A stretch of 64,000 nt of DNA from a virus (IMGVR_UViG_3300020478_000003:32001-96000); one strand, 5' to 3'; counted from the first letter of the stretch, positions 1 to 36,913 are shown. Notes: a model not told the origin generated them from the letters alone. Made by a program: numbers and translations.

Positions 1-2
1 CT

Positions 3-3000: not shown

Positions 3001-3935
3001 CGTATGGGGAAGATCCATCTTCTCCAAATCACGGCACAGCCGCTGGTGGACAATTTGCGGCAAACGAAGCAGAATTTTACATATATGGAATTGGATTTGA
3101 TCCTGCTTCTACTGTTAAAGTTCAAAAATCTTCCTCTGATGATATGCCTGGAAACTATGCAGTCGGAGGGGATAATACCACTATCTATGAAACTGGATCG
3201 GGAGTAATAGCTACCTATGTTTCTTCTACAGAAATAAAAGTACATCTTACTACAAGTGATATTCCAGCAGGACACGATGCTAGTTTAGGTTCAGCCGGTG
3301 GATGGGGTGTGATGTATTATGATGTAACAGTAACAAATCCTGATGGTCAGACATTCACAGAAAAAGCGAATGCAGTACCAGGAAGTTATGCTGGAGAATG
3401 GATAACAGTCTCAGATGGTAAATATTCCGGAATTACTCCGCCTGTTCATTCAAATCAACCATTCCCAGAATATGCTGTCATTGGATGGGACCCAAATCGA
3501 TATTCTTCTGGTAACGGAGTTAGAGTTTTCGGATATACTTTAGAGCCAGCAGTTAGAATTCAGCAGATTTCAAATAATTTGATGGAGACTATGCCGGATA
3601 TTTTTGATTTGGGAACAAATCCAGAATGGGCACCAGCTGGAGTTGTATCAGCTACAGAATATGAGATGCAAGTAATGGGAGCTTCAGACGATGGAGCTGG
3701 TAATCAATCTTGTGTGGTAACTTTAGTTCCTGCAGAAGGCACAGGCTTAGTATATACACCTGAAATTGCGACTGCCGCAAATGCGACTGCCGTAAGAATT
3801 ATCAACGGTGCGGTAGATGTGAATACTGGGTTATATCCACCACACGGAAGTTATGATATAATATTAACCAATGATGACGGTTCATACGATATAGTGAAAA
3901 AAGGTTTTCATTATGGTCCTGGTCCTTGGTCATAA
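3..3935 (+). CDS. Large virion structural protein (tail/baseplate-associated), probably truncated at the window edge; carbohydrate-binding-like beta repeats, Cys-rich repeats and IPT/TIG-like C-terminal domains
   Basis: 1310-aa Gly/Thr/Asp-rich ORF; repeated W...G..Y.V.Y/F beta modules; C-x-D-x(6-8)-C...G-x-W repeats at about 2155-2712; 'GIGFDPASTV...YVSSTEIKV...YDVTVTNPDG' resembles IPT/TIG; lies among late structural genes. Confidence 0.6.
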   Translation: MIPGIGSEQFLVTNQYNGNAVVYMSTDIDKRANIALNNVTFKEVVWTETGSWQVGGGSAWTSTTEAGYLEQLITGALTEGVTYEVQYDITEDFKDDFGAPSGTITASIIGDTTVTLTPNTLVGHYTETITAPANTTTFRLDSTGMGKIDNASIRERVTGQNAWYMGEGWSSTAGAKAYIDGSIASPTEISQTVAFDAGKLYEVKYNVADMDPNDDGMTGRLRVTLGHNPNNLISNWNFDIIDTAAVNWAFSGVDVSIVNEKMEFLSSVNGTATYTLASSLVKNAHYEVTLDTTLQTHNIYIFTVGPGPSGSHSHTFQITQEDADWLMEDETRTRAFPQSDAYHAETYTHEFTLSYATVNQEWILVSQTIPEGHEDLALTSTVTNNPSIEIILDSVVLATVTESGIHHLDIIGENTADFVVRVNGTGSIDHIKLFEEEIPILDYDSTGLVHQGEVVHHVRAGSHDSLIHFIADVDNNRPEENNPYYLQTGWEGSIDEVSVREIEEKWTFAPQQGASAYVDQIAGQIYTAGTGTSARGIAHISFEIIDQMSYKVNFNVDRPTDSIIKIGPSPDTDTYGSMVIAANDTDGDKDFVFKAPVTGVAYLTLTTTGNGFTYWDNISVKTIPNLSSDEYLLLARSLNIFGVPIGGEERWKVQHMDMENLDYAGMPIAGLRTLESYGESIIEDYYDVNKRQTDILNPPIRIDSLSVEFGFRAIAAVNPSCSDFNTQASLPAYTSAADCTQPNGIWYAEVFEFCSDATYTTEVNCIEPNGTWSPGTCSGGGFTEQGTCLAAGTCTDAAYNNNQAMCLGAGTCDNSLYNNNETQCMNNGGAWTSAGNSFTPAGYTWTPGTCSDIAFGSQSACEAPRAVWTPTVAAHCKESLGGALAPAFTTQSACEQQRGIWDPTLVSAMNGDEIEATGEGIDINWDITIGGVSQITSAILLPSRVKYEVTVDTPLGGQEWKITNTAGDYFTYPDPFVVNDPMRIITIYQPDPQIAPNGKAYGEDPSSPNHGTAAGGQFAANEAEFYIYGIGFDPASTVKVQKSSSDDMPGNYAVGGDNTTIYETGSGVIATYVSSTEIKVHLTTSDIPAGHDASLGSAGGWGVMYYDVTVTNPDGQTFTEKANAVPGSYAGEWITVSDGKYSGITPPVHSNQPFPEYAVIGWDPNRYSSGNGVRVFGYTLEPAVRIQQISNNLMETMPDIFDLGTNPEWAPAGVVSATEYEMQVMGASDDGAGNQSCVVTLVPAEGTGLVYTPEIATAANATAVRIINGAVDVNTGLYPPHGSYDIILTNDDGSYDIVKKGFHYGPGPWS

Positions 3936-3968
3936 TATGGATCATAAGTAAAAAATAACACTGGATGA

Positions 3969-3988
3969 TATAAATAGTATTATAAATA
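3969..3988 (+). promoter_or_regulatory. Two tandem T4-type late promoters (TATAAATA, 12-bp period)
   Basis: TATAAATA at 3969-3976 and 3981-3988, upstream of a GGAG RBS and the ATG at 4023; the genome encodes gp55. Confidence 0.75.
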
Positions 3989-4022
3989 TATCAAGAGAAT
4001 ATAATTTTGGAGATAAATTAAA

Positions 4023-7000
4023 ATGTCAGTAACACTATCAAACATTACTACTGCGGTAGATCCGTTTAACGATATACCCGATATTACATTTGACAGTATC
4101 GATGTATCGGCGTATACCGAAGAAGTAGAGATATATACCAATACGCCAGCGGTAATGATACCGGCTAAATTGAACGCTATGGCGGCTTCAATGAAAAACT
4201 GGTTAAATGATAATGTTTCTGCTCCTTTAGAAAATCAACAAAATACATTTAAAAACGAAGTTGTAGTTAGAACAAATACAGCAATGAATGCTGTGGAAAC
4301 TTATATGAACAATGAAGTTCAAAGTTTCGTAAATACAGTCTTTGTTCCTTGGGCAAACGATGCAGGATTAGTTCTCTCTAATCACGCCAACTTACAAGAA
4401 AGCAATGTAACCACTACATTAAATCAATTACAGGCTGATTATACAGCCCACGTAATATCTCAAGATGCTCTTATTGCTCAAGCCCTTGTAGATATGTTGG
4501 CTAGTCTTTCTCAATATACATCGGGTGCAGCCGATTCTGGTTATACCGTTCATCAAACAAACGAATTACTTGCCGATATTACAATGACTCGGCAGATTGA
4601 TTTTAGCGATTATTTGTATGACCACAATAATGATGTTATATTTGCCCACGAAGGTCCAAACATTACTCATCACATTAATTACAAACCTACTGACGGTACA
4701 GTTTTATCGTTTGGTGAGTCAATGCAAATTTTTGGTGAGCCTCGACCATTCATTCAACATTTAAGATTAGAAATAAGTCCAGAAGATACACCTTCAGTTA
4801 AGCAGATTAAAGCATATGATATTTTTAAGAACACTTCTGCTGGAGGTGTTCATTCATTCAGAGGTACTGGACACGAAGCAGATGGTGAGCCAGCTGTAGA
4901 ATTAACAATCTTGAACAATCTATCCGTTGCTGATACTGATAATCCAGAAATTATCCTGAGACGAGGATCTGAAGCCGCATTAATGTTTGGAGGAATTGAT
5001 AAGGGAGATTATGCCAAATTAGTAGAGATAGATGGTACCACAGTTTACAATAAAGGTGTTGTTGGTAACTATGCTCAAGATTATGACACGATATTATTTA
5101 AACCACATCAATCATACTGCCACGATGGCGCATCCGGAGTAACTGGATGGGGAGTCATAGCCGATGACCACGCAAGTGGTATCGATGGTGACGGAGGAGC
5201 TTATGATACTCCAACTAAATGCGAAGAATATGTAGATAGTTCCGTTGCTCTTTTAGATGATCTTTCCCGTTCTTATGAATATAATATTCCTGGAGAATCT
5301 TATGAATCTGCAATATCTGACGGACTGATTTATAAAGTTTATATCAATGATGATACTGGATTTATTGATTCTTACGCATACTCAATTGATGCTAATGGTA
5401 AAACAGGAACTGGAGCTATACTTACACCTTACTATGATGACGGAGTTTCAGATGTCACAATGACTTCTGGTGGAACTAAATATTCCACTAATACTAAAGC
5501 AAGAATATTTGACTTAGGTGCTGTAGATCAAACCGGTTCAGTCGAAACAAAAGCTACGGCTACTTTTACTCTTAAAGATGGTATGATAAGAGATGTTGGC
5601 TTTACTGATTACGGAGCAGGTTATACTGGATATTGGGAAGTAGATGTTGCCGCTGAAGTTGGTGGTGACGGACACACACATAAAGTTCATTTAACTCAAA
5701 CAGAAGTAAATACAATTATGGGTGGTGGAACTGTTGTTTCAACAACGGTTGATGCTGGTCATACACACGATCAAACTGTTGGTTGGAATGCTTTCAATCA
5801 ATCTTTTGAATTTATTTCTACCACAGGTGCTCACGTTCATCCATTAGAAGTTACCACTCACGTAGTTAATCCCACTTTATCAATTAATGTTGCTACTTCA
5901 ACCGGAGGTCTAGCCGAAGGAACAGTTTATCTTAAAGAAGATGATTCTATAGATTATGTAGTAATGACAAATGGCGGAGCCGATTATGATGCCGCTGATA
6001 CACTTACTATTAGTGGAGGAACTCCTTCAACTCCTGCAGTCTGTACGTTCACACTTGCAAACGGTGGAATTGCAGGCTTTTCAATGGTAGATCAAGGAAC
6101 TGGATATACCGATTCAACCGCAAAAACAGTTGCAGTTAATATTCAAAACGATGCGTTTTCGCCAAGTGTAATTACAGCAAATGTTGGTGATACAGTAACT
6201 TTTACAAATTTAGATATTCAACCACATACAGTTACACATTCGGGTGGAATGTTTGATTCATTAGATATTCCTCAGAATGCTGTATTCTCATACGTTGTTA
6301 CTAAAGCCACAGAATTAACTGACAAGTACGAACTTTACGATACAAATAATACACAAATTACCGCAACTCTTTGGGTTCGTGATAATCCTTGCTACATTGA
6401 TATGGTTACCTCTACTGGAGGTGGACTTTATGGAAAAGCTACGGTTAATGCTAGTGGAAACGTTACGAACATTGCTGTAGAGAGACCCGGAGAAGGTTAT
6501 CAAAATACTGATACAGTTAAAGTAATTGATATATCTGGCGCTGGAGAAGGTGCTTATGCTACTGTGGAGACAGACAGAAGTGTAGGATCAGTTATTATAA
6601 CTAACGGTGGATCTGGCTATGATCAAGAAACAGAAGTTTTTGCATATGATCCTACTGGATTTCCTGATGGTTCTGGTGGTACAATTTATGGTTCAGGAGC
6701 AATTCTGAAACCTACAATTAATACAGAATATCAGGCGGCATATTGTGCAGATCCTCAGTATACAGATCAAGCCGCTTGTGAAGCCGCTTTAAATGTTTGG
6801 TATCCTGCAATTGAACTTGGACAAATTACAGATATAAAAGTACAAGCTGGAGGATCAGGCTATAAAGATATCGAGTTCATAATTAATGATGTGACAGAAT
6901 CTGGATCAGGATGTATTTTAGCTCCAGATCAAAACAATGTAGTTACGGCAGTCAACTTTAGTTCACGAGGCGGACAAGGAACTGCTGGAGGAAACGCATA

Positions 7001-7616
7001 TGTTGAACCTTTCATAATCATTCAAGATGCAGGCGGAACTGTTGGAACTGATGATTGGTCAGTCGGAAATGGATTTGCTGGTACCGTTGTACTAAATAAT
7101 GGTATAGGAGCAGTATCGATTGTTGATGACTGGGCAGATTATGTAGATGGAGAACAAAGGGTTGTTATTGTTGATGCTCACGCCGAACCAACCGGATTCG
7201 GAGCCACGGGTACTGCTACTGTAGGAGTATCTGGAAACGTAGAATCAGTTTCAGTAACTAATGCCGGTTCAGCATACAAGACACCAGTCGTAATGGTTGC
7301 TGGTCCAGTTAGTATGACTGCCCATATGTCTTCTATTAATAATGTTAATACTAATTTAGCATTATATGGACCTGAAGGAAATTCAAATGATTCACCATTC
7401 TCAAATAATAATACTGCTAATACTAACAAGAAGAATGGAATAATGATTCAATTTGAAAATCCAAACGGACATACATTGAACGATAATTGGGTATTCAAAA
7501 CGCAATCTTGGAAATTGGGTACTCCTGCAAGTATACTATATACTTCTAGTAGATACGATGGTAACCTTGAAAATATGCGAGGAATTATAACTCTTAAAGA
7601 TGTTTGGGAAACATAA
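4023..7616 (+). CDS. Virion structural protein (baseplate wedge/tail-fibre-like) with G-x-G-Y repeats, HxH motifs and a cupredoxin-like insert
   Basis: 1197 aa; N-terminal helical/coiled region; many I/V-x3-G-x-G-Y repeats typical of marine T4-like baseplate proteins; GHTH/GAHVH motifs; late promoter upstream. Confidence 0.6.
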   Translation: MSVTLSNITTAVDPFNDIPDITFDSIDVSAYTEEVEIYTNTPAVMIPAKLNAMAASMKNWLNDNVSAPLENQQNTFKNEVVVRTNTAMNAVETYMNNEVQSFVNTVFVPWANDAGLVLSNHANLQESNVTTTLNQLQADYTAHVISQDALIAQALVDMLASLSQYTSGAADSGYTVHQTNELLADITMTRQIDFSDYLYDHNNDVIFAHEGPNITHHINYKPTDGTVLSFGESMQIFGEPRPFIQHLRLEISPEDTPSVKQIKAYDIFKNTSAGGVHSFRGTGHEADGEPAVELTILNNLSVADTDNPEIILRRGSEAALMFGGIDKGDYAKLVEIDGTTVYNKGVVGNYAQDYDTILFKPHQSYCHDGASGVTGWGVIADDHASGIDGDGGAYDTPTKCEEYVDSSVALLDDLSRSYEYNIPGESYESAISDGLIYKVYINDDTGFIDSYAYSIDANGKTGTGAILTPYYDDGVSDVTMTSGGTKYSTNTKARIFDLGAVDQTGSVETKATATFTLKDGMIRDVGFTDYGAGYTGYWEVDVAAEVGGDGHTHKVHLTQTEVNTIMGGGTVVSTTVDAGHTHDQTVGWNAFNQSFEFISTTGAHVHPLEVTTHVVNPTLSINVATSTGGLAEGTVYLKEDDSIDYVVMTNGGADYDAADTLTISGGTPSTPAVCTFTLANGGIAGFSMVDQGTGYTDSTAKTVAVNIQNDAFSPSVITANVGDTVTFTNLDIQPHTVTHSGGMFDSLDIPQNAVFSYVVTKATELTDKYELYDTNNTQITATLWVRDNPCYIDMVTSTGGGLYGKATVNASGNVTNIAVERPGEGYQNTDTVKVIDISGAGEGAYATVETDRSVGSVIITNGGSGYDQETEVFAYDPTGFPDGSGGTIYGSGAILKPTINTEYQAAYCADPQYTDQAACEAALNVWYPAIELGQITDIKVQAGGSGYKDIEFIINDVTESGSGCILAPDQNNVVTAVNFSSRGGQGTAGGNAYVEPFIIIQDAGGTVGTDDWSVGNGFAGTVVLNNGIGAVSIVDDWADYVDGEQRVVIVDAHAEPTGFGATGTATVGVSGNVESVSVTNAGSAYKTPVVMVAGPVSMTAHMSSINNVNTNLALYGPEGNSNDSPFSNNNTANTNKKNGIMIQFENPNGHTLNDNWVFKTQSWKLGTPASILYTSSRYDGNLENMRGIITLKDVWET

Positions 7617-7629
7617 TATTAAGAGTTCA

Positions 7630-7649
7630 TATAAATAGTAATATAAATA
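7630..7649 (+). promoter_or_regulatory. Two tandem T4-type late promoters (TATAAATA, 12-bp period)
   Basis: TATAAATA at 7630-7637 and 7642-7649, upstream of GGAG and the ATG at 7688. Confidence 0.75.
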
Positions 7650-7687
7650 GAAATGAATATTAAAGAACATTTGGAGAAAAAAGTCTA

Positions 7688-8686
7688 ATGGATATTTTAA
7701 CACTAGGAAAAATGAACGCTATGGCGCGGGATGTTGACGTAACGTTGGAATATCTAGCCAATGCAACCTTCCAAGCCCTAAAAGATGTTTGTGATATACA
7801 AGCCGGGATGGAGGCAAATTTAAATACCATCGCTCAAAATAACATTGATGAAGTAAATGCCGCTGGACCAAATCGTGGAATACAGACAAGAGAATATTTC
7901 AACGATTGTGCCCGAGGCTGTCATTGTATGGTAGGATGTTCAGATACCTTTACTGTTCCTCCCGGAACAAAAACTATTATGTTTGAAGCCTGGGGTGGCG
8001 GTGGAGCCGGTGCAGGACATTGTTGTCAAGGTTGCTGGTGTGATGTGGCATCTTGTGGATCAAATGGCGGATTTTATGGAAGAAAGACTATCTGTGCAGA
8101 AGCAGGGCATTTCGACGGTGTTAACGGAGGAGATGTTTATACGATTTGTGTAGGAGATGGAGGTAACGGTGGAAGTCATTGTTGGACTGCTTGTTGCGAT
8201 GCTCCTCGAGGTTGTGCTTCATATGTAACTGGACCAGGACTTACAAACTTTTGTGCTGTAGGTGGACGAGGTGGATATAATCTTTATTGTACTTGTCAAT
8301 GTAATATGAGTCATTGTTGGGCTGAAGCCGCACATTGTAACGGAATGATAATGTGTGCTCCAGTTGGGTGTAATCAAGCAACAAATATGGATTCAACAGG
8401 AACAGGAGCAGTTAACGGTCAAATGTTTGAAAAAGAACAATTGAGTGCTGGACATTGTGATTGTGGCGGAAGATTTACAAGAACAGGTCAATCAGATGGT
8501 TTAACAAATTCAATAATGCAACACATTGGACACTCAATGTCTTATTGTGGATGCGAAACACCTTGCTATAGCTTCCGACACGCAGGTGGTGGAATGAACA
8601 CTATGAAAGCATACTGCGGAAATCCACTAGAAAATTGTCTAGGTTCTCCTGGAAGACCAGGCTTAGTTAGAGTAACATACGCATAA
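7688..8686 (+). CDS. Cys/Gly-rich tail-fibre tip/adhesin-like protein (paralog 1)
   Basis: 332 aa, about 31 Cys; 'FTVPPGTKTIMFEAWGGGGAG...GLVRVTY' glycine-rich fibre domain; N-terminus MDILTLGKMNAMAR identical to 9392..10363. Confidence 0.6.
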   Translation: MDILTLGKMNAMARDVDVTLEYLANATFQALKDVCDIQAGMEANLNTIAQNNIDEVNAAGPNRGIQTREYFNDCARGCHCMVGCSDTFTVPPGTKTIMFEAWGGGGAGAGHCCQGCWCDVASCGSNGGFYGRKTICAEAGHFDGVNGGDVYTICVGDGGNGGSHCWTACCDAPRGCASYVTGPGLTNFCAVGGRGGYNLYCTCQCNMSHCWAEAAHCNGMIMCAPVGCNQATNMDSTGTGAVNGQMFEKEQLSAGHCDCGGRFTRTGQSDGLTNSIMQHIGHSMSYCGCETPCYSFRHAGGGMNTMKAYCGNPLENCLGSPGRPGLVRVTYA

Positions 8687-8699
8687 GGATAATAGTAAA

Positions 8700-9392
8700 A
8701 TGAGCGACACTTGGCAAGAAACTGTAGATGTAGATTATCAATATGATTGTCCCTCGGAGAATTATCTTGATGGTCCGGCGTCTGAAAGTATAACAGAAAA
8801 TTACAACGGACCAGCCAGGTTGGTTGCTCTTGTTGATAAAGAAACTAAATTAGTTGAAGTAACATTACGAGAATGGGAAGCATATGATGGTCGCCCAGAC
8901 AGAATAAATTGCGATAACGTAGTTATTGACTGTTCAGCAAATGCTTTAGTATGCGAAGTTCTTTCTGATTATCATAATAATCATTTAGATACATCCGAAG
9001 TGCATCCCGAAGAACCTAGAGAAATGAAATCGATTCCAACTCCTGACGGTTACGAAGAATTTACTTGGTTCTATCCAATTCATCCAGACGAATTATATGA
9101 TTCAAACAAAACTACATATGAAGATGGTGAATGGAAGTTATATAAGAACACAAATCAAGATATTTTAGGACAGGGAGAACCTGCAAATTGGGACGAAATA
9201 CGACAAATGCGAAATGGAATGTTGTGGATGACAGATGCGACCGCAAATGCAGCCGATGCTCCCGCAGACCTTAAAGCAGGAGTAACTGAACTAAGGCAAA
9301 AATTACGGGACTTGCCTGAGGCATTAAAGGATATAGACGATATCTTTGTTCCTTCATCGTTCCCATCAACTAAAATTTTGGAGCAAAAGTAA
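8700..9392 (+). CDS. Tail fibre assembly chaperone-like protein (paralog 1)
   Basis: C-terminal 'WDEIRQMRNGML..TD......LRQKLRDLP' matches the phage tail-assembly chaperone motif (R..RN.LL..SD...YRQ.LRD.P). Confidence 0.65.
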   Translation: MSDTWQETVDVDYQYDCPSENYLDGPASESITENYNGPARLVALVDKETKLVEVTLREWEAYDGRPDRINCDNVVIDCSANALVCEVLSDYHNNHLDTSEVHPEEPREMKSIPTPDGYEEFTWFYPIHPDELYDSNKTTYEDGEWKLYKNTNQDILGQGEPANWDEIRQMRNGMLWMTDATANAADAPADLKAGVTELRQKLRDLPEALKDIDDIFVPSSFPSTKILEQK

Positions 9393-10363
9393 TGGATATA
9401 TTAACGCTAGGAAAAATGAATGCGATGGCCCGGAACACGGACCAGGCTCTCGAATTAATGTCCAATCATCTATATGAAACTCAACAAGAGATATGTGCTT
9501 TTCAAGCATCTAATGTAGATAATATTAACTCCGCTGTAGCTACAGGATTGGCACAACTAAGCCAAAACGTTGCAGTTACAATGTCTACGGATCAAAAACA
9601 TTTTTACATTTATAATACTTCTCACTGGTCAGCATATAATGGAGGATGTTGTTTACAATGGACAGTTCCTGAAGGAACATCAATTATTACTTTTGAGATT
9701 CTTTCTGGAGGTGGACCAGGTGGTTCAGCTGGATACGATTATGATATCGGACACGGTGGAGCCGGTGGAAACTATAACGAAAAAACTATATGTTTAGCAG
9801 GTGGACATTTTCAATCGTCTGCTGGAAACGAATCAGTTTATACATTATGTGCAGGCGGAACATCAGGATGTTCTTGCTGTACAACTTGTAACCGAGCGTG
9901 TAGACACGGATGTACTTCATTTGTAACAGGAGATGGATTATCCAACTTCTGTGCAATTGGCGGACACGGTGGATCAACATCTTGGGACGTACAATCATCT
10001 TGTTATAACTGTCATATCGGTGGAGTACAATGTGATAGAGGTAACTACAACGCAGGTTGGGTAACACATAACTGTAACGAAGCCGCTTATGGTGGTGATA
10101 TGTGTTTCAGAGGTATTGCCGCTGGTATGCACAAAGGATACAGTTGTTGTAATGAAATTACAAATGGTCAAGGAAGTCCTGCAGGACCGTTCACAGCACC
10201 TTGGTCCGGTGCGGCAAACCATTATTGTGCAGGAGATTATGCTTGTTGTGCTGGTCACTCAGCATTCCCTGGTGGAGGTGGAGTAGGTGACGGAAACGCC
10301 GCTGGTACACCTTGTACAGGATCTTGGGGAGCCGGTGGTCTTGTTAAAGTGACTTATCAATAG
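9392..10363 (+). CDS. Cys/Gly-rich tail-fibre tip/adhesin-like protein (paralog 2)
   Basis: 323 aa, about 23 Cys; 'WTVPEGTSIITFEILSGGGPGG...GAGGLVKVTY'; same first 14 aa as 7688..8686. Confidence 0.6.
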   Translation: MDILTLGKMNAMARNTDQALELMSNHLYETQQEICAFQASNVDNINSAVATGLAQLSQNVAVTMSTDQKHFYIYNTSHWSAYNGGCCLQWTVPEGTSIITFEILSGGGPGGSAGYDYDIGHGGAGGNYNEKTICLAGGHFQSSAGNESVYTLCAGGTSGCSCCTTCNRACRHGCTSFVTGDGLSNFCAIGGHGGSTSWDVQSSCYNCHIGGVQCDRGNYNAGWVTHNCNEAAYGGDMCFRGIAAGMHKGYSCCNEITNGQGSPAGPFTAPWSGAANHYCAGDYACCAGHSAFPGGGGVGDGNAAGTPCTGSWGAGGLVKVTYQ

Positions 10364-18072: not shown

Positions 18073-18084
18073 TTAAATCCATAT

Positions 18085-18282
18085 TTATCCTGGATCTTTC
18101 TTTTTAAGTTCTTTTTTGAAATTGTCAATCATTCCTAAGATTGTTTCATATTCCTCTAATTCTCGGCTTAATTCGTTATTACATCCGATAAGATAGTCAA
18201 TACGTTTTCCGTACTTTTCTTCCATCTTTCTCTCAATTTCAATCTCAAGACCTTTCTTCCACACAAGTTCGGCTAGATTCAT
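18085..18282 (-). CDS. Hypothetical protein
   Basis: 65 aa; overlaps the stop of the upstream minus-strand ORF by 4 nt; fills an otherwise empty gap. Confidence 0.6.
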   Translation of the reverse strand: MNLAELVWKKGLEIEIERKMEEKYGKRIDYLIGCNNELSRELEEYETILGMIDNFKKELKKKDPG

Positions 18283-18509
18283 AGCATTTCTTCATTTTCC
18301 AATAATTTTGTGAGAATAAGATGCTTCATTTCCTCATAATCCTTATCAAATTCTGCCGTTGCTGGATCACCGTGCATTACAAAGGTGTGAGACTCTATAG
18401 GAAATCTCTCCCGTTTGATTACATAGAAATCTGACAGTATTTTATCTAAAACTTCAGAATATCGCTTGTAACGGCGTTGATGAAAAGGGACATAGTCTTT
18501 TTCTTCCAT
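18279..18509 (-). CDS. Hypothetical protein
   Basis: 76 aa; AGGTGA RBS-like sequence just upstream on the minus strand; minus-strand late promoter at 18559-18566. Confidence 0.65.
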   Translation of the reverse strand: MEEKDYVPFHQRRYKRYSEVLDKILSDFYVIKRERFPIESHTFVMHGDPATAEFDKDYEEMKHLILTKLLENEEML

Positions 18510-18522
18510 ATCACCTTTATTA

Positions 18523-18530
18523 TATAAATA
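18523..18530 (+). promoter_or_regulatory. T4-type late promoter
   Basis: TATAAATA upstream of the membrane protein gene and gp13. Confidence 0.7.
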
Positions 18531-18558
18531 GTTAAAACACGTTTTCGTTTCTGTTTAT

Positions 18559-18566
18559 TATTTATA
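18559..18566 (-). promoter_or_regulatory. T4-type late promoter, minus strand
   Basis: TATTTATA on + equals TATAAATA on -, about 50 nt upstream of the only minus-strand gene pair. Confidence 0.55.
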
Positions 18567-18630
18567 CGCTTAAAGTGAACTGATTCCAGAAACGGAAAAT
18601 CACATAAATAACTATAGGAATAAGGGTACA

Positions 18631-32992: not shown

Positions 32993-33400
32993 ATGAAAAT
33001 TGAAGAACTAGAAAAATTAGTAGAAAAAGACCTCTATATTGACGAAACAATCCTCGCCAAAGAGTCTCTTTTAACTCCTACCAAGCACAATAAGTATCTA
33101 AAGATGCTATTGAGGGAACGATTGAAGTTAAAGCAACTTCAAAATGAACTCAATAAAGTATCTCTAGGTAGGACTTGTTATTATAATGGTTCAGATCCTG
33201 ATCCTTATGAATATGTCCTCAAAGATCGAGAGGTCAAAGACTATGTTAAGGTAGATCCAGTTGTGATGGAAGCAGAAGCAAAGGTGGCTTTGCAAGACGA
33301 AACAGTTAAATATCTTGAAGAAGTCTGTAAAATGTTTGACAAACGTGGATTTGCTATAAAGAATGCAATCGACTTTATGAAATTTACCGAAGGCGGATGA
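32993..33400 (+). CDS. uvsY: Recombination mediator UvsY
   Basis: 'KDLYIDET.L..ESL..P..HNKYL', 'YYNG', 'RGFAIKNAIDF.KF..G'. Confidence 0.88.
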   Translation: MKIEELEKLVEKDLYIDETILAKESLLTPTKHNKYLKMLLRERLKLKQLQNELNKVSLGRTCYYNGSDPDPYEYVLKDREVKDYVKVDPVVMEAEAKVALQDETVKYLEEVCKMFDKRGFAIKNAIDFMKFTEGG

Positions 33401-33786
33401 GAGAATACTTAAAGAATTATTATGATGCTCCTTGGTCTGATAATAATATAGTCCACGAAACCGAAGATATAGTAGTATACAAAGATGGATTTCCTGTCAC
33501 AGAAGGTCATCTTTTATTTGTACCTAAAAAAGTTGAGCAAAGAAAAGACATTACACGTTGTTTTGAAATGGCTTATGAATGGGGTGTAAAAGGTATAATG
33601 GATTATAAATGGACAGCATTTAACTTGGGTATTAATAATGGAGAAGATGCTGGACAGACAGTAATGTGGACACACGTACATTTGATTCCACGAAGGAAAG
33701 GTGATCTAGGATCTTTTGAAAATGGTACTCCTTATGATCCCGCTGGCGGAATTAGAAATATAATTCCAGGAAAGGGAAAATATTGA
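33397..33786 (+). CDS. HIT-family nucleotide hydrolase
   Basis: 'D.FPVTEGHLLFVPK', 'FNLGINNG.DAGQTV.WTHVHLIPRR.GD'. Confidence 0.85.
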   Translation: MREYLKNYYDAPWSDNNIVHETEDIVVYKDGFPVTEGHLLFVPKKVEQRKDITRCFEMAYEWGVKGIMDYKWTAFNLGINNGEDAGQTVMWTHVHLIPRRKGDLGSFENGTPYDPAGGIRNIIPGKGKY

Positions 33787-35261
33787 AAGATATCATTGTA
33801 CATAAAAAGGATGATGTATATTTGAATATTGAATGTGAGGCTGGAATAGCCCACGATTTATCAGATTTCTTCACCTTTAGAGTCCCGGGCTATAGATTTA
33901 TGCCAGCATATCGAAATCGAGCGTGGGATGGAAAAATAAGACTGTTTAATGCGTTTGGTGGTGAATTATATGTAGGATTATTGCCATACGTGGTCGAATT
34001 CGCGGAGAGAAGATCATTAATACTTGAATATCCCACCTTGGTGCCTACTATCACGGATGAGGAAAATGTCAAGTTTTTTCGTGATTTAGACCCATATGTG
34101 GATGGTAAGAGCATAACTCCCTATGATTATCAGATGGATACCGTATTTTATGGTATCAATCATAAAAGGGCTTTAATGCTCTCGCCCACCAGTTCGGGTA
34201 AGTCATTAATGATCTATGCTTTAGTGGTTTGGTTACTGAAAACTATCGATAGAAAAATATTAATAATCGTGCCGACCACTTCGCTGGTTGAACAGTTATA
34301 TAAGGACTTTGAAGATTATACTACGGGATCATCTTGTGGCTATAACGCTGACCAGACTCACAGGATATACGCTGGAAAAGATAAAGATACGGATTGTCCT
34401 ATTGTAATTACTACGTGGCAATCTATATACAAACTGAAAAAGGATTGGTTTAAACAATTCGGTGCTGTAATCGGAGACGAAGCACATAATTTTAAAGCCA
34501 AATCACTTACTTCCATTCTGACCAAAATGACAGATTGTGAGTATAAATTTGGGTTTACGGGTACTCTAGACGGTACCCAAACACACAAGTTGGTCCTTGA
34601 AGGACTCTTTGGTCCTGTACATAATGTTACGACAAGTAAAGAGTTGATGGATGCTGATTTGATTGCTCAATTGCATATTGAAGCAATCACTTTGGGATAT
34701 ACAGACGAAGAAAAGAAACTTGTGAAAGGGATGTTATATGCGGATGAAATCGACTGGCTAGTAAAGTGTCAGAAAAGAAACGAATTTATCTGTACTCTAG
34801 CATTAACCAGGGATTCAAATACCCTAATTCTCTATCAATTTGTACAAAAGCACGGTGAAAAACTGTTTAAATATTTGAAAGAGAAAAGTCCAGACAGACC
34901 GGTGTTCTTTGTATCAGGTGAAATCAAGACGGAAGTCAGAGAGGAGATACGTGCAATTACGGAAAAATCTGAAAATGCTATCATCGTGGCTAGTTACGGC
35001 ACTTTTTCGACTGGTATTAATATTAGAAATCTTCATAATATTATTTTTAGCCACCCTGTCAAGTCTCGCATTAGAAACTTGCAGAGTGTTGGGCGAGGTC
35101 TACGAAAATGCGACAACAAAAGCAAAGCAACTCTTTTCGACATAAGCGATGATTTGAGTTGGAAAAAGCATAAAAATTATTCTCTCCGCCATTTTTTGGA
35201 GCGAGTGAAAATATACAATAGTGAAAAATTTGATTACAAACTAAGGAAAATACGATTATGA
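33783..35261 (+). CDS. uvsW: DNA helicase UvsW
   Basis: 'WDGKIRLF', SPTSSGKS, DEAH, GFTGTL, 'SYGTFSTGINI.NLHN', QSVGRGLR. Confidence 0.96.
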   Translation: MKDIIVHKKDDVYLNIECEAGIAHDLSDFFTFRVPGYRFMPAYRNRAWDGKIRLFNAFGGELYVGLLPYVVEFAERRSLILEYPTLVPTITDEENVKFFRDLDPYVDGKSITPYDYQMDTVFYGINHKRALMLSPTSSGKSLMIYALVVWLLKTIDRKILIIVPTTSLVEQLYKDFEDYTTGSSCGYNADQTHRIYAGKDKDTDCPIVITTWQSIYKLKKDWFKQFGAVIGDEAHNFKAKSLTSILTKMTDCEYKFGFTGTLDGTQTHKLVLEGLFGPVHNVTTSKELMDADLIAQLHIEAITLGYTDEEKKLVKGMLYADEIDWLVKCQKRNEFICTLALTRDSNTLILYQFVQKHGEKLFKYLKEKSPDRPVFFVSGEIKTEVREEIRAITEKSENAIIVASYGTFSTGINIRNLHNIIFSHPVKSRIRNLQSVGRGLRKCDNKSKATLFDISDDLSWKKHKNYSLRHFLERVKIYNSEKFDYKLRKIRL

Positions 35262-35575
35262 GCCAAGAATATCCATATAAAGGATCTGTTCATCTTAAAC
35301 ATACGGGACACGAATTGATCTGCGATGTTATCAAGGAAACTTCTGCGGGAGTATTACACATCAAAAATCCCTGCACTCTCCAGACAGTAGTTACAGGAGA
35401 TGGATCTAGTCAGATGGCTATGGTTCCATATCTGGTAACAGCCAAAGTGGATGAAGTAGGTATAAAATTGACGGATGTCCTTTTTGTTACTGAATGTAGA
35501 ACGGATGTAGCTGAACAACATACCCAAATGTTCAGTTCTGTCATTCTTCCAAAAGCTGGAGGATTTGAAATTTAA
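35258..35575 (+). CDS. Conserved small protein downstream of uvsW (possibly Sm-like fold)
   Basis: 'HLKHTGHELICDV......LHIKNP....' pattern; ATGA overlap with uvsW. Confidence 0.55.
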   Translation: MSQEYPYKGSVHLKHTGHELICDVIKETSAGVLHIKNPCTLQTVVTGDGSSQMAMVPYLVTAKVDEVGIKLTDVLFVTECRTDVAEQHTQMFSSVILPKAGGFEI

Positions 35576-35753
35576 CTTAATTAATGAAAGGAATACCATG
35601 GATGCGTGTATGACATTAGCAAATGAATTAATATCTATATCCTCCACCCATATGATCATCGGAGGAATTATCTTTTCGGGAATGTCATTTTGTTTAGGAG
35701 TTATTTTTGAAAAATCCTTTCAGGAAGAACTTGACAATAAAGCAAAAGTTTAG
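35565..35753 (+). CDS. Small membrane protein
   Basis: Likely start at ATG 35598 after AAGGA; hydrophobic segment MIIGGIIFSGMSFCLGVIF. Confidence 0.45.
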   Translation: MKFNLINERNTMDACMTLANELISISSTHMIIGGIIFSGMSFCLGVIFEKSFQEELDNKAKV

Positions 35754-35759
35754 TATAAT
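35731..35759 (+). promoter_or_regulatory. Sigma70-type promoter firing into a gene-free region
   Basis: Perfect TTGACA(35731)-N17-TATAAT(35754); no ORF follows for 530 nt. Confidence 0.85.
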
Positions 35760-35765
35760 ATAAAA

Positions 35766-36045
35766 ATTTGCATCAATGTTCGCCGTGGGACGAGACACGG
35801 ATTCCACCTAGATCAGAACCTAGGTAAGTAGCCTTTGGTGAAGTGAGCAGACTATAATACTCGACAAACGGAGTTGAGGTCTGTGTATTGATGTGCCGAT
35901 GCAAGCACTAAATATACGTAAAAATCGGGTCGGGACTCACCACATAATGGTATTGTCCACTAGAGACTTGTGAATCGACACAAGCGAGGCTATCAGGAAC
36001 CGTAACCTGGCTCTATAAGCTAGGATGTATCTTTTTACCGACTGT
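35766..36045 (+). ncRNA. Candidate structured non-coding RNA (~280 nt)
   Basis: GC-enriched, ORF-free, own promoter; helices CCGTG/CACGG, ACCTAG/CTAGGT, TAGCCT/AGGCTA, TGGTGA/TCACCA, GCAGAC/GTCTGT, CTTGTG/CACAAG, CAGG/CCTG, GTCGG/CCGAC. Confidence 0.55.
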
Positions 36046-36077
36046 ATAAATTCTCTTTAAATAAAGACTTTAAAAAA

Positions 36078-36194
36078 TGAAATTGCGAAAGGGCGAAGCC
36101 CTTGAGCATCCTGTTTCGAGCAAAGCGAGAAACAGGACTTAGATGTAACTTTTGACTCTCGGACCTACGGTCCTCGAGAGGCTTCGCCATTTCA
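36078..36194. other. Multi-hairpin (cloverleaf) element with GNA-type triloops; candidate replication origin or ssDNA signal
   Basis: Closing stem TGAAATTGCGAA/TTCGCCATTTCA enclosing AAGGGC-GAA-GCCCTT, TCCTGTTTC...GC-AAA-GC...GAAACAGGA and CTCTCG...GACC-TAC-GGTC...CGAGAG. Confidence 0.6.
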
Positions 36195-36221
36195 GGTTAT
36201 ATAGATATTTACATAAAAGAC

Positions 36222-36250
36222 TTGACTTATTGAATTTAAAAGAGTATAAT
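36222..36250 (+). promoter_or_regulatory. Sigma70-type promoter for the gp55 operon
   Basis: AAAAGAC-TTGACT-N17-TATAAT. Confidence 0.8.
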
Positions 36251-36292
36251 TAGAAGATATATTGTACTTAATATAATTTTGAAAAATATACT

Positions 36293-36913
36293 ATGGCTAA
36301 GAATGATCAAAAAGAACCAGTTGATTTAGATAACCCAACTCACTACATCAATAATAAGGATTTTTTACAGGCTCTTATAGATTATCAAAAAGAGATCAAA
36401 GAAGCCAAGAAAGCTGGTAAATCAAAACCTTATGTTAGTGATTACATTGCTATGTGTTTCCTACAGATAGCACAAAGACTTTCCTATAGACCAAACTTTA
36501 TAAACTACACGTATAAAGATGATATGATATCAGACGGTCTAGAAAATTGTCTGGCTTATATGCACAATTTCAATCCTTCGAAGAGCAAAAATCCTTTTGC
36601 TTATTTTACACAAATAATATACTACGCATTTTTACGAAGAATCCAGAAGGAGAAGAAACAACAATATATTAAGTATAAAGTATATTCCGAACATCAACAG
36701 GAGATTGAAGATGAACACGAAAAACTTTCTCCCGATTTCATCAATGAAAAGGGATCTGCCGATTTTCATATTCATATAAAAGAGTTTATAGACGAAATGG
36801 AACGAAAAGAGAAAGAGAAGAAACAGAAACGAGAACAGAAGAAAGCCGAGAGGGAAAGAAAAATACAAATAGAATCTACTCCTGAAAACAATCTTGAATT
36901 CTGGATGCAATGA
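36293..36913 (+). CDS. gp55: Late-transcription sigma factor gp55
   Basis: 'HYINNKDFL.AL', 'IA.RLSYRPNF.NYTY.DDMISDG.ENCL.Y.HNF.P.KS.NPFAYFTQI.YYAFLRRI.KEKKQ'. Confidence 0.96.
   Translation: MAKNDQKEPVDLDNPTHYINNKDFLQALIDYQKEIKEAKKAGKSKPYVSDYIAMCFLQIAQRLSYRPNFINYTYKDDMISDGLENCLAYMHNFNPSKSKNPFAYFTQIIYYAFLRRIQKEKKQQYIKYKVYSEHQQEIEDEHEKLSPDFINEKGSADFHIHIKEFIDEMERKEKEKKQKREQKKAERERKIQIESTPENNLEFWMQ

What the first reader, a model, noticed from the sequence alone, without database searches (positions are those of the whole stretch)
35731..36045. Promoter-driven ~280-nt structured non-coding RNA between uvsW and gp55
Seen: a perfect sigma70 promoter fires into the largest gene-free stretch in the window, while gp55 has its own promoter at 36222. 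The region is GC-enriched with local hairpins (CCGTG/CACGG 35783-35800, ACCTAG/CTAGGT 35806-35825, CTTGTG/CACAAG 35967-35984) and long-range pairs (TAGCCT 35829/AGGCTA 35987, TGGTGA 35836/TCACCA 35937, GTCGG 35929/CCGAC 36038). The 5' TTGCATCAAT has two alternative partners (TATTGATGT 35886, GATGCAA 35898). It does not look like tRNA, tmRNA or RNase P to me. Inference: an undescribed phage RNA, possibly a folded replication primer (see next finding).
Basis: partly seen in the sequence, partly recalled or inferred. Interest (0 to 1): 0.8.

Follow-up and report, generated by a model that had tools for sequence, protein, structure and literature searches.

The report
New pseudoknotted RNA gene in marine phages
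Just upstream of the late sigma factor gene, a group of uncultured marine T4-like phages carries a strongly promoted gene for an intricately folded RNA of about 270 bases that matches no known RNA family and whose function is unknown.

Summary
A perfect sigma70 promoter (35731-35759) fires into a non-coding stretch that is conserved at 68-100% identity in related viral and metagenomic contigs (57 distinct versions). On 38 distinct sequences, a hand-built structure of 54 pairs forms standard pairs in 96.9% of cells, against 30-40% in slid controls. Of the 54 pairs, 32 show compensatory changes. G-U pairs outnumber A-C 245 to 33, so the + strand is the RNA. The first bases of the transcript pair with a hairpin loop 130 nt downstream, and this pseudoknot co-varies through about 20 sequence types. 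The promoter scores at least 10 of 12 in 53 of 56 members. There is no conserved reading frame, no tRNA or tmRNA, and no Rfam match in the window or in 10 diverged members. The literature searches found no description of it. Cultured relatives (Pelagibacter phage Mosig, cyanophage syn9) lack it. The replication-primer idea gains no support: GC skew does not shift here, and the downstream hairpin and repeat module also occurs without the RNA. My best reading is a new class of stable, early-expressed, trans-acting folded RNA. Its partner and its 3' end are unknown.

The parts
35731..35759 (+). P1: consensus sigma70-type early promoter (TTGACA, 17 nt, TATAAT). The start is predicted near 35766 (inferred).
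   Evidence: 12/12. At the same place in relatives it scores 12/12 in 32, 11/12 in 8, 10/12 in 13 and below 10 in 3 of the 56 members examined.
35766..35782 (+). 5' leader. Bases 35768-35774 (TTGCATC) form the 5' strand of pseudoknot PK1.
   Evidence: A perfect Watson-Crick complement of at least 6 bp to the member's own H5a loop occurs in 39 of 46 distinct leader/loop combinations, against 59 of 1340 for loops of other types. About 20 pair types are seen.
35783..35800 (+). H1 hairpin (CCGTG...CACGG). It is an insertion present only in the nearer clade.
   Evidence: Relatives show co-varying arms such as GCTTG/CAAGC, TCTAG/CTAGA, CCTTG/CAAGG and CTGTG/CACAG. Distant members lack it.
35807..35824 (+). 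H2 hairpin (CCTAG / CTAGG).
   Evidence: Helix 1: 95.3% of cells paired, and 2 of 5 pairs have changes on both sides (15 and 16 sequences).
35827..35845 (+). Conserved AGUAGC - small hairpin H3 (35831-35839) - GUGAAGUG. It may be a bulged-G (loop E) type module; the motif name is recalled, not tested.
   Evidence: The flanking bases are nearly invariant in alignment A1. For H3, 1 of 3 pairs has changes on both sides, and one G-U pair is present in 36 of 38 sequences.
35847..35884 (+). H4 (GCAGAC / GUCUGU) enclosing H4a (35859-35862 with 35871-35874).
   Evidence: Helices 3-5: 7 of 10 pairs have changes on both sides, and 94-100% of cells are paired.
35885..35917 (+). H5 with a conserved internal loop (AUUGA / UAAAUA) and apical hairpin H5a (35893-35908). 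The H5a loop 35898-35904 is the 3' strand of PK1.
   Evidence: Helices 6-7: 8 of 8 pairs have changes on both sides. This arm is missing in the most reduced members such as L034, L035 and L200.
35928..35991 (+). 3' domain. Px (35928-35931 with 35988-35991) encloses P9 (35933-35958, with inner P9a 35939-35951), the invariant UAGAGA (35961-35966) and P10 (35967-35984).
   Evidence: Helices 8, 9 and 13 are 100% paired. Px column 172:243 reads GC 17, UA 17, GU 4. In P10, 5 of 6 pairs have changes on both sides.
35993..36015 (+). P11 hairpin (35993-35997 with 36006-36010; the loop holds a near-invariant CGUAAC), then CUCUA (36011-36015). CUCUA is the proposed 3' strand of pseudoknot PK2, pairing with UAGAG at 35961-35965.
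   Evidence: P11 is 100% paired, with 3 of 5 pairs changed on both sides. PK2 is complementary in 95.7% of cells but never co-varies (3 invariant pairs, 0 compensatory), so it is inferred only.
36016..36084 (+). 3' tail and A+T-rich linker. It is poorly conserved and variable in length.
   Evidence: 23% G+C. The terminator-like hairpin at 36006-36024 flagged is not kept in relatives (read).
36085..36136 (+). Hairpins A (36085-36107) and B (36110-36136). Each is a stem with a tandem G-A step and a C-GAA-G tip.
   Evidence: A2, 46 sequences: all 13 predicted pairs have compensatory changes. The 164-nt 3' region folds at z = -4.27. Hairpins of the same type occur in L059 without the core, so they may not belong to the RNA gene.
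36156..36193 (+). Hairpin C (36156-36180), GGCUUCGCC (36180-36188; the reverse complement of the tip of hairpin A), and a short AUUU run. This is a possible 3' boundary or processing stem.
   Evidence: Arms co-vary in the near clade: GGACC/GGUCC, GGCCC/GGGCC, GCCAC/GUGGC. A canonical intrinsic terminator between core and gp55 is found in only 2 of 41 members.
36222..36250 (+). P2: a second sigma70-type promoter directly before gp55 (gp55 ATG at 36293).
   Evidence: 11/12. It scores at least 10/12 in 38 of 41 members. gp55 matches phrog_234, late sigma factor, at E 1.7e-59.

Best explanation
This is a gene for a previously undescribed class of structured non-coding RNA, carried by a clade of uncultured marine T4-like (Kyanoviridae-like) myoviruses.

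Shown:
- A consensus-strength promoter of the host sigma70 type stands before it and is conserved.
- The + strand folds into a two-domain structure of about 11 helices.
- The first bases after the predicted start are locked into a pseudoknot with a hairpin loop 130 nt downstream.
- It does not code for protein.
- It is present once per genome.
- It matches no Rfam family.

Inferred:
- Host RNA polymerase makes it in large amounts at the very start of infection.
- The tied-down 5' end and compact fold make it stable.
- It acts in trans as a folded RNA, binding a host or phage protein or a small ligand as a scaffold or decoy, rather than as a base-pairing regulator or a message.

Its partner, its 3' end and its biological role are unknown. 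I put about 0.95 on 'a genuine conserved structured RNA' and about 0.4 on the trans-acting scaffold or decoy mechanism.
For: - Conservation: blastn of 35700-36300 against the gp55 loci gives 68-100% identity over up to 600 nt of non-coding DNA. nhmmer hits reach 58, and 160 loci hit after pattern scans, giving 57 distinct core rows.
- Structure: RNAalifold finds 27 of 41 pairs with compensatory changes.
- Structure, hand-built model: 96.9% of cells are paired against 30.0-39.5% when partners are slid. 32 of 54 pairs have double changes, against 9-13 slid. The covariation score is 0.399 against 0.033-0.063. 0 of 500 shuffles reach the observed value on four of five measures; on the fifth, further pair types, 79 of 500 do.
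- Strand: 245 G-U against 33 A-C in the helices of 57 sequences, with G-U or U-G as the commonest pair at three positions (36, 34 and 38 of 38 sequences).
- PK1: 39 of 46 against 59 of 1340.
- Promoter: at least 10/12 in 53 of 56 members, always ending about 10-13 nt before the PK1 strand.
- Non-coding: 6.0-7.5 stops per + frame, and 0-1 of 38 sequences open in any anchored - frame.
- Copy number: single copy in three long records.
- No known family.
Against: - There is no direct evidence of a transcript, because no RNA run could be listed. Expression, ends and abundance are therefore inferred from the promoter alone.
- A canonical terminator between the core and gp55 is present in only 2 of 41 members. 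The RNA may instead be the 5' part of a longer transcript that reads into gp55, which fits a cis role.
- The single-sequence folding energy is unremarkable (z = -1.43).
- PK2 has no covariation.
- Nothing identifies a partner.
- The H5/PK1 arm is absent in the most reduced members, so the 5' lock is not universal.
Confidence: 0.45

Rival explanations
1. Origin-priming transcript. P1 fires through the folded core into the A+T-rich linker and the hairpin and repeat module. There the RNA forms a persistent hybrid that primes DNA synthesis, and the fold governs hybrid formation as in ColE1 RNA II (recalled) or at T4 oriE/oriF.
For: - A strong early promoter is followed by a 77% A+T linker.
- No canonical terminator precedes the downstream module (2 of 41).
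- The module has hairpins in both orientations around an A+T-rich spacer, with direct repeats in some relatives: L017 43 nt x2, L015 32 nt x2.1, L059 59 nt x2.
- T4 oriE depends on an early promoter and has iterons, and oriF/oriG are a promoter plus an A+T-rich unwinding element (PMC3016281, passages read).
- UvsW, which unwinds R-loops in T4, is encoded about 500 nt upstream.
Against: - Cumulative GC skew rises evenly through the locus. The only strand and skew switch in the 124 kb record is at about 4 kb.
- L059/L060 keep the module but lack the core and P1.
- The window itself has no repeats in the spacer.
- T4 R-loops need no specific sequence, which does not explain two pseudoknots and invariant junction bases.
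- No strong antisense promoter is present; the best on the - strand is 9/12.
Confidence: 0.15
2. Cis-acting leader. The P1 transcript reads through into gp55, and the folded domain controls how much late sigma factor message is made or kept, by sensing a protein, a ligand or temperature, or by guiding processing at the downstream long stem.
For: - In the family members whose flank to gp55 could be examined (41 of 57), the element lies upstream of gp55 on the same strand.
- A canonical terminator is absent in 39 of 41 members.
- The forward and inverted hairpins can form a long stem of the kind cut by double-strand RNases, in the folds (inference).
- In the window lineage only, the P11 and PK2 3' strands can refold into a terminator-like hairpin with a U run.
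Against: - A conserved strong promoter, P2, sits between the element and gp55 (at least 10/12 in 38 of 41), so gp55 does not depend on P1.
- The core ends about 280 nt before the gp55 start.
- The alternative terminator hairpin is not conserved.
- Cultured relatives express gp55 without any such leader; their gap is only 35-95 nt.
Confidence: 0.15
3. A new ribozyme or ligand-sensing RNA. The invariant unpaired bases (GUGAAGUGAGC, UAGAGA, CGUAAC, AAUCG) and the two pseudoknots form an active site or binding pocket.
For: - The density of invariant junction bases next to freely co-varying helices, and the pseudoknotted topology, are the pattern seen in ribozymes and riboswitches. This is established knowledge, not tested here.
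Against: - No chemistry was tested.
- No match to any self-cleaving or other ribozyme model in Rfam.
- The topology does not fit group I: there are no bases between P11 and the PK2 3' strand where J8/7 would be, there is no three-helix P4-P6 domain, and there are no exons.
Confidence: 0.15
4. Not an RNA gene: a conserved small protein gene, or a DNA-level site such as a protein-binding array or cruciform.
For: - Some relatives have - strand open frames of up to 81 codons in the core.
- GCGAAGC-type tips can also form hairpins in DNA (recalled).
Against: - No frame is open across the family.
- Gap runs are mostly not multiples of three: 452 of 546.
- Compensatory changes keep pairing.
- G-U exceeds A-C 245 to 33, which a double-stranded DNA site or a - strand structure would not give.
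Confidence: 0.02

Closest known systems
GOLLD and ROOL (large ornate RNAs often carried by phages and prophages), and OLE, raiA and HEARO (large structured bacterial RNAs)
   Same: It is a large, highly conserved, multi-helix non-coding RNA with invariant junctions. It was found by comparative analysis, it is phage-borne, and its function is unknown. The listing and abstract of PMC12286853 (seen) describe these as large ornate RNAs; the rest is recalled.
   Different: No sequence or structure match to any of their Rfam models. It is much smaller (core 239 model positions; about 270 nt with the leader). Its host group is different (marine T4-like myoviruses). It has its own consensus promoter and a 5'-end pseudoknot.
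Origin transcripts: T4 oriF/oriG/oriE RNAs and ColE1 RNA II
   Same: A promoter fires into an A+T-rich region next to repeats. ColE1 RNA II (recalled) is a folded primer about 550 nt long.
   Different: There is no compositional or strand switch at the locus. The fold is far more constrained than T4 R-loop RNAs require. No antisense partner promoter is present. The downstream module exists without the RNA in L059/L060.
Known RNA elements of T4-like cyanophages (wcaG, manA, glnA, PhotoRC-II motifs; CfrI antisense RNA)
   Same: They come from the same broad virus group, and some were found by covariation in marine sequences. They are listed in PMC9964418 (passages read).
   Different: Those are short cis-regulatory motifs before protein genes, or an antisense RNA. 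None matches here. This element has its own promoter and is 2-3 times larger.
6S RNA (a decoy for sigma70 RNA polymerase)
   Same: As a working analogy only: an abundant RNA that could titrate a host factor at the switch from host-sigma to phage-sigma transcription. The gene sits next to gp55, and cyanomyoviruses lack MotA/AsiA (PMC2984593, passages read).
   Different: 6S is a long hairpin with a central bubble (recalled), whereas this is a branched, pseudoknotted fold. There is no Rfam 6S match.

Membership tests
Any Rfam 15 family (4227 models) | Score at or above the family's gathering threshold | tested here: not met
   0 matches in the whole window. At E up to 10 on 35500-36400 there are only 4 hits of 17-18.5 bits, against thresholds of 51-72. 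Ten diverged members at E up to 5 give 3 unrelated hits, none shared between members.
tRNA / tmRNA | Cloverleaf or tRNA-like domain with a tag reading frame | tested here: not met
   ARAGORN finds 0 genes in the window.
Group I intron | P3-P7 pseudoknot with a J8/7 strand and a P4-P6 domain | tested here: not met
   The order Px / hairpin / PK2 5' / hairpin / Px' / hairpin / PK2 3' resembles it loosely. However, there are 0 nt between P11 and the PK2 3' strand, and only one hairpin stands where P4-P6 would be (structure). There is no Intron_gpI hit.
Group I intron | Flanking exons that join into a gene | tested here: not met
   The element lies between complete genes. gp55 is intact from its start, and cultured relatives have the same two genes 35-95 nt apart with nothing missing.
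T4-type R-loop origin (oriF/oriG) | Promoter followed by an A+T-rich unwinding element | tested here: inconclusive
   The promoter is present. The linker at 23% G+C lies about 250 nt downstream, not directly after the promoter. The features are taken from PMC3016281.
T4-type R-loop origin (oriF/oriG) | Location at a switch of transcription strand and nucleotide skew (noted for oriE, oriF and oriG) | tested here: not met
   Cumulative GC skew rises steadily through G000 position 67.7 kb. The only switch is at about 4 kb.
T4-type R-loop origin (oriF/oriG) | Persistent R-loop and autonomous replication of the cloned region | not testable with these tools
   This needs an infected host or a plasmid assay.
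ColE1 RNA II-type primer | Antisense regulator RNA from an opposing promoter within the 5' region | tested here: not met
   The best - strand promoter-like site inside the element scores 9/12 (35974-35947).
Independent RNA gene (promoter + structured product + terminator) | Conserved promoter placed at the 5' edge of the conserved structure | tested here: met
   At least 10/12 in 53 of 56 members. The PK1 strand starts about 10-13 nt after the -10 box.
Independent RNA gene (promoter + structured product + terminator) | Conserved intrinsic terminator at the 3' edge | tested here: not met
   A canonical stem plus U run is found in 2 of 41 members. Only a weak AUUU follows hairpin C in the window.
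Independent RNA gene (promoter + structured product + terminator) | A detectable transcript with defined ends | not testable with these tools
   No RNA run was listed for the stretch, so no reads could be laid.

The most novel reading that the evidence does not exclude
The core is a new catalytic or ligand-sensing RNA: a ribozyme or riboswitch-like sensor with two pseudoknots. Marine T4-like phages would deploy it in the first minutes of infection to take over a host function, for instance to disable a host protein or defence system, or to time the switch to gp55-dependent late transcription in phages that lack MotA/AsiA.
Probability: 0.2. Interest if true: 0.9.

Novelty: categorically new. 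Interest (0 to 1): 0.72.

Why it matters
Large RNAs with many conserved helices, pseudoknots and invariant junction bases are rare. In the past they have turned out to be ribozymes, riboswitches or cores of ribonucleoprotein machines. This one is carried by abundant, uncultured ocean phages related to cyanophages and pelagiphages. It has one of the strongest possible host-type promoters, so it is probably among the first and most abundant products of infection. It sits beside the gene for the late sigma factor, in a phage group whose early-to-late switch is not understood. Because the promoter is of the E. coli consensus type and the RNA is only about 270 nt, it can be made and tested directly without culturing the host, by structure probing, cryo-EM, self-cleavage assays and pull-downs. 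The covariance model built here (R1) gives a way to track the family.

Tried and rejected
- RNA evidence: the look-up of sequencing runs (kind rna) on window:34800-37200 listed no RNA holder. No reads could be laid, and this says nothing either way about expression.
- blastn of the region against 50,697 phage records found no match.
- Bacterial genomes: one pattern scan gave 22 matches. None is a family member by nhmmer or by model R1. This was a single 18-base pattern, so it does not show absence from bacteria.
- A blind all-against-all search for extra co-varying column pairs was swamped by clade-level correlations. I dropped it in favour of testing named helices.
- With G-U pairs allowed, the PK1 control did not discriminate (100% own against 34% other). 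I therefore also report the Watson-Crick-only count.
- tRNA-gene intron, tmRNA, RNase P, SRP RNA, HDV-like and glmS-like folds were considered from recalled consensus features. I rejected them for lack of their conserved motifs and of any Rfam hit.
- The riboswitch-style terminator/antiterminator reading of 36006-36035 was rejected because the alternative hairpin and the U run are not conserved.
- Literature: five answered full-text searches and passages of three further papers gave no description of this RNA.

Full report
**What is at the coordinates**

The window is part of a 124 kb viral record (G000:C1:32001-96000) from a T4-like marine myovirus. The local gene order is as follows:

| Feature | Coordinates |
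|---|---|
| UvsY | 32993-33400 |
| HIT-domain protein | 33397-33786 |
| UvsW helicase | 33783-35261 |
| 105-aa protein of unknown function (phrog_527) | 35258-35575 |
| lineage-specific 62-aa hydrophobic frame | 35565-35753 |
| non-coding gap | about 540 nt |
| gp55 late sigma factor | 36293-36913 |
| gp47 | from 36910 |
| gp46 | from 38147 |

The gp55 protein is 60-68% identical to those of cyanophages and of Pelagibacter phage Mosig.

A second promoter at 36222-36250 scores 11 of 12. The core is 45% G+C, against 37% for the window.

**Single-sequence evidence is weak**

The minimum free energy of 35766-36050 is no better than that of shuffles on either strand: z is -1.43 and -1.39. Nothing in Rfam matches. 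There were 0 hits at gathering thresholds over the whole window. At E up to 10 there were four unrelated hits of 17-18.5 bits. ARAGORN finds no tRNA or tmRNA.

**Relatives settle the question**

- A scan for gp55 relatives returned 80 loci.
- The non-coding gap is conserved at 68-100% identity in most loci whose gp55 is at least about 69% identical. Two rounds of nhmmer gave 55 and then 58 hits.
- Two motif patterns scanned over the viral, metagenome and bacterial-genome collections added members.
- By my count, 43 of 76 metagenome matches and 18 of 19 new viral matches are family members. None of the 22 bacterial-genome matches is.
- In all, 160 loci carry the element, giving 57 distinct core rows including the window.

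**Covariation**

RNAalifold on 38 distinct sequences (window 35801-36036) predicted 41 pairs, 27 of them with compensatory double changes. I corrected one mis-pairing: H4 is GCAGAC with GUCUGU, supported by compensations in L052 and L061. I also added helices by eye and counted a 54-pair, 14-helix structure.

| Measure | Observed | Partners slid by 1-3 columns |
|---|---|---|
| cells forming standard pairs | 96.9% | 30.0-39.5% |
| pairs with changes on both sides | 32 of 54 | 9-13 |
| covariation score | 0.399 | 0.033-0.063 |

No shuffle out of 500 reached the observed value on four of five measures. On the fifth, the number of further pair types, 79 of 500 did.

**The RNA strand is the + strand**

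Across 57 sequences the helices hold 2541 Watson-Crick, 245 G-U and only 33 A-C cells. At three positions G-U or U-G is the commonest pair, in 36, 34 and 38 of 38 sequences.

**It does not code for protein**

Each + frame has 6.0-7.5 stops. No anchored - frame is open in more than 1 of 38 sequences. Of the 546 gap runs, 452 are not multiples of three.

**Anatomy, in window coordinates (checked)**

- The transcript should start near 35766 (inferred from the -10 box).
- Bases 35768-35774 (UUGCAUC) pair with the loop of hairpin H5a (GAUGCAA, 35898-35904).
- Relatives carry UUGUAC/GUACAA, UUGUUC/GAACAA, UUGGAC/GUCCAA, ACUGAC/GUCAGU, UUACUC/GAGUAA, UUACGCA/UGCGUAA, ACUAUAA/UUAUAGU, AACUGA/UCAGUU and others, about 20 types in all.
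- A perfect complement of at least 6 bp to the member's own loop is found in the leader in 39 of 46 distinct combinations, against 59 of 1340 for loops of other types. With G-U allowed, the control is not discriminating: 100% against 34%.
- The 5' domain then holds H1 (35783-35800, near clade only), H2 (35807-35824), and a conserved AGUAGC - small hairpin - GUGAAGUG element (35827-35845). That arrangement recalls a bulged-G/loop E module; this is recalled, not tested.
- It continues with H4/H4a (35847-35884) and H5/H5a (35885-35917), which has a conserved internal loop.
- The 3' domain (35928-36015) has helix Px enclosing hairpin P9/P9a, an invariant UAGAGA and hairpin P10. Hairpin P11 follows, with a near-invariant CGUAAC loop, and then CUCUA.
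- UAGAG and CUCUA are complementary in 95.7% of cells but never vary. This second pseudoknot is therefore only inferred.
- The most reduced members (L034, L035, L200 and kin) lack the H5 arm and hence PK1.

**Promoter and ends**

- A sigma70-type promoter stands at the same place in relatives: 12/12 in 32, 11/12 in 8, 10/12 in 13, and lower in 3 of the 56 members examined. It ends about 10-13 nt before the PK1 strand. This ties the 5' edge of the conserved structure to a transcription start.
- The 3' end is open. A canonical stem plus U run between the core and gp55 is found in only 2 of 41 members. The terminator-like hairpin at 36006-36024 is specific to the window's lineage (read).
- After an A+T-rich linker (23% G+C) come two hairpins, A at 36085-36107 and B at 36110-36136. 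Each has a tandem G-A step and a C-GAA-G tip, and all 13 predicted pairs show compensation in 46 sequences.
- Then follow hairpin C (36156-36180), GGCUUCGCC (36180-36188) and AUUU.
- The second promoter, P2, is itself conserved: at least 10/12 in 38 of 41 members.

**Distribution**

Model R1 (239 positions, 49 pairs) finds one copy in each of three long records (G000, G001, G002). It finds none in the complete genome of Pelagibacter phage Mosig, and in cyanophage syn9 only a chance-level match (E 0.35, 12.8 bits) at an unrelated place. In both phages the MauE-like gene and gp55 are only 35-95 nt apart. R1 finds nothing in 19 more distant gp55 loci or in the 22 bacterial loci. No psbA was found in the 69%-complete record, so the host is unknown.

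The three long-range pairs (35829/35987, 35836/35937, 35929/36038) are not kept in relatives, and their bases sit in other helices that co-vary. The second partner for the 5' end (35886) exists only in the window's lineage. By frames of at least 90 aa, the gap is the second largest in the window, not the largest.

**Replication-primer idea**

For:
- An early promoter, an A+T-rich linker and no terminator before a module with forward and inverted hairpins around an A+T-rich spacer.
- Of the 27 members in which gp55 could be placed, 24 have forward C-GAA-G motifs, 19 have reverse ones, and 16 have all forward motifs before all reverse ones.
- Some relatives have direct repeats in the spacer.
- T4 oriE uses an early promoter and has iterons, and UvsW removes origin R-loops (PMC3016281, passages read).

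Against:
- Cumulative GC skew rises evenly through the locus, and the only strand or skew switch is at about 4 kb of the record.
- L059/L060 keep the hairpin, repeat and inverted-hairpin module and P2, but have neither the core nor P1. The module therefore stands on its own.
- The window has no spacer repeats.
- T4 R-loops need no specific sequence.

I put this reading at 0.15.

**Most likely working**

A consensus promoter, a 5' end tied into a pseudoknot, a compact branched fold with invariant junction bases, one copy per genome and no coding capacity all point one way. This is most likely a stable, abundant, early RNA that works as a folded molecule in trans: a protein or ligand binder, scaffold or decoy, possibly a catalyst.

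What is shown is the promoter, the structure, the strand, the conservation and the absence of any known family. What is inferred is the expression level, the stability and the trans action. The cis-leader reading (0.15) stays open because no terminator is conserved. It is weakened by the conserved P2 and by relatives that need no such leader.

**Comparison with the known**

The element resembles the phage-borne large ornate RNAs (GOLLD, ROOL) in kind, but not in sequence, size or host group. It fails membership of every Rfam family, of tRNA/tmRNA, of group I introns (no J8/7, no P4-P6, no exons), and of the T4-origin and ColE1-primer patterns on the features I could test.

Five answered full-text searches and passages of three further papers gave no prior description. 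Supplements and subscription journals were not visible, so priority cannot be guaranteed.

**Verdict**

This is a genuine and, as far as these tools can see, undescribed class of structured phage RNA. Its function is unknown and it is readily testable.

Noticed in passing
window 36085-36193; L017, L015, L044, L035, L059 (spacer between the core or upstream region and gp55): Downstream of the RNA core lies a separate conserved module. Two hairpins with G-A steps and C-GAA-G tips are followed by an A+T-rich spacer with ATGTAA/TTACAT words. After that come hairpins carrying the reverse complement of the same tip motif, and then the gp55 promoter. Several relatives have perfect or near-perfect direct repeats in the spacer (43 nt x2, 32 nt x2.1, 59 nt x2); the window has none. 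It could be a processing stem, a terminator, a protein-binding array or an origin-like site.
   Followed up: partly
L059 216-1170 (and the identical L060): A phage whose gp55 is 79% identical has the hairpin, repeat and inverted-hairpin module and P2. It has no R1 core and no strong upstream promoter. Instead a different G+C-rich non-coding stretch of about 380 nt follows a methyltransferase-like gene fragment. That stretch has no Rfam match and no relatives among the loci held.
   Followed up: partly
leaders of L044, L042, L017, L049, L015, L236, L050, L033 (and CATAAATA in L053, L051): In these distant members the leader carries TATAAATA, the T4-type late-promoter word (recalled), about 20 nt after the early -10 box and just before helix H2. 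A late transcript from it would lack the PK1 5' strand. The window and the near clade have hairpin H1 there instead.
   Followed up: no
window 35565-35753: A 62-aa hydrophobic open frame overlaps promoter P1 at its 3' end. It is present only in the window's closest relatives (L003, L004) and has no Pfam or PHROG match.
   Followed up: partly
window 33397-33786: A HIT-domain gene (Pfam HIT, E 3.6e-12) sits between uvsY and uvsW. Pelagibacter phage Mosig and cyanophage syn9 have a 2OG-Fe(II) oxygenase gene at that place.
   Followed up: no
window 51401-52198 and 18073-18630: Two other long stretches have no open frame of 90 aa or more (798 and 558 nt). The first is longer than the gap studied here. 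Neither has an Rfam match at gathering thresholds.
   Followed up: no
G000:C1:123665-123694 (outside the window) and window 36202-36233: The stretch just before and into the gp55 promoter P2 has an 88% identical 30-nt copy elsewhere in the genome. This suggests a repeated early-promoter cassette.
   Followed up: no
G000:C1 about 1-9600 (outside the window): The only cluster of - strand genes and the minimum of cumulative GC skew in the 124 kb record lie at about 4 kb. By composition this is the most origin-like place in the record.
   Followed up: no
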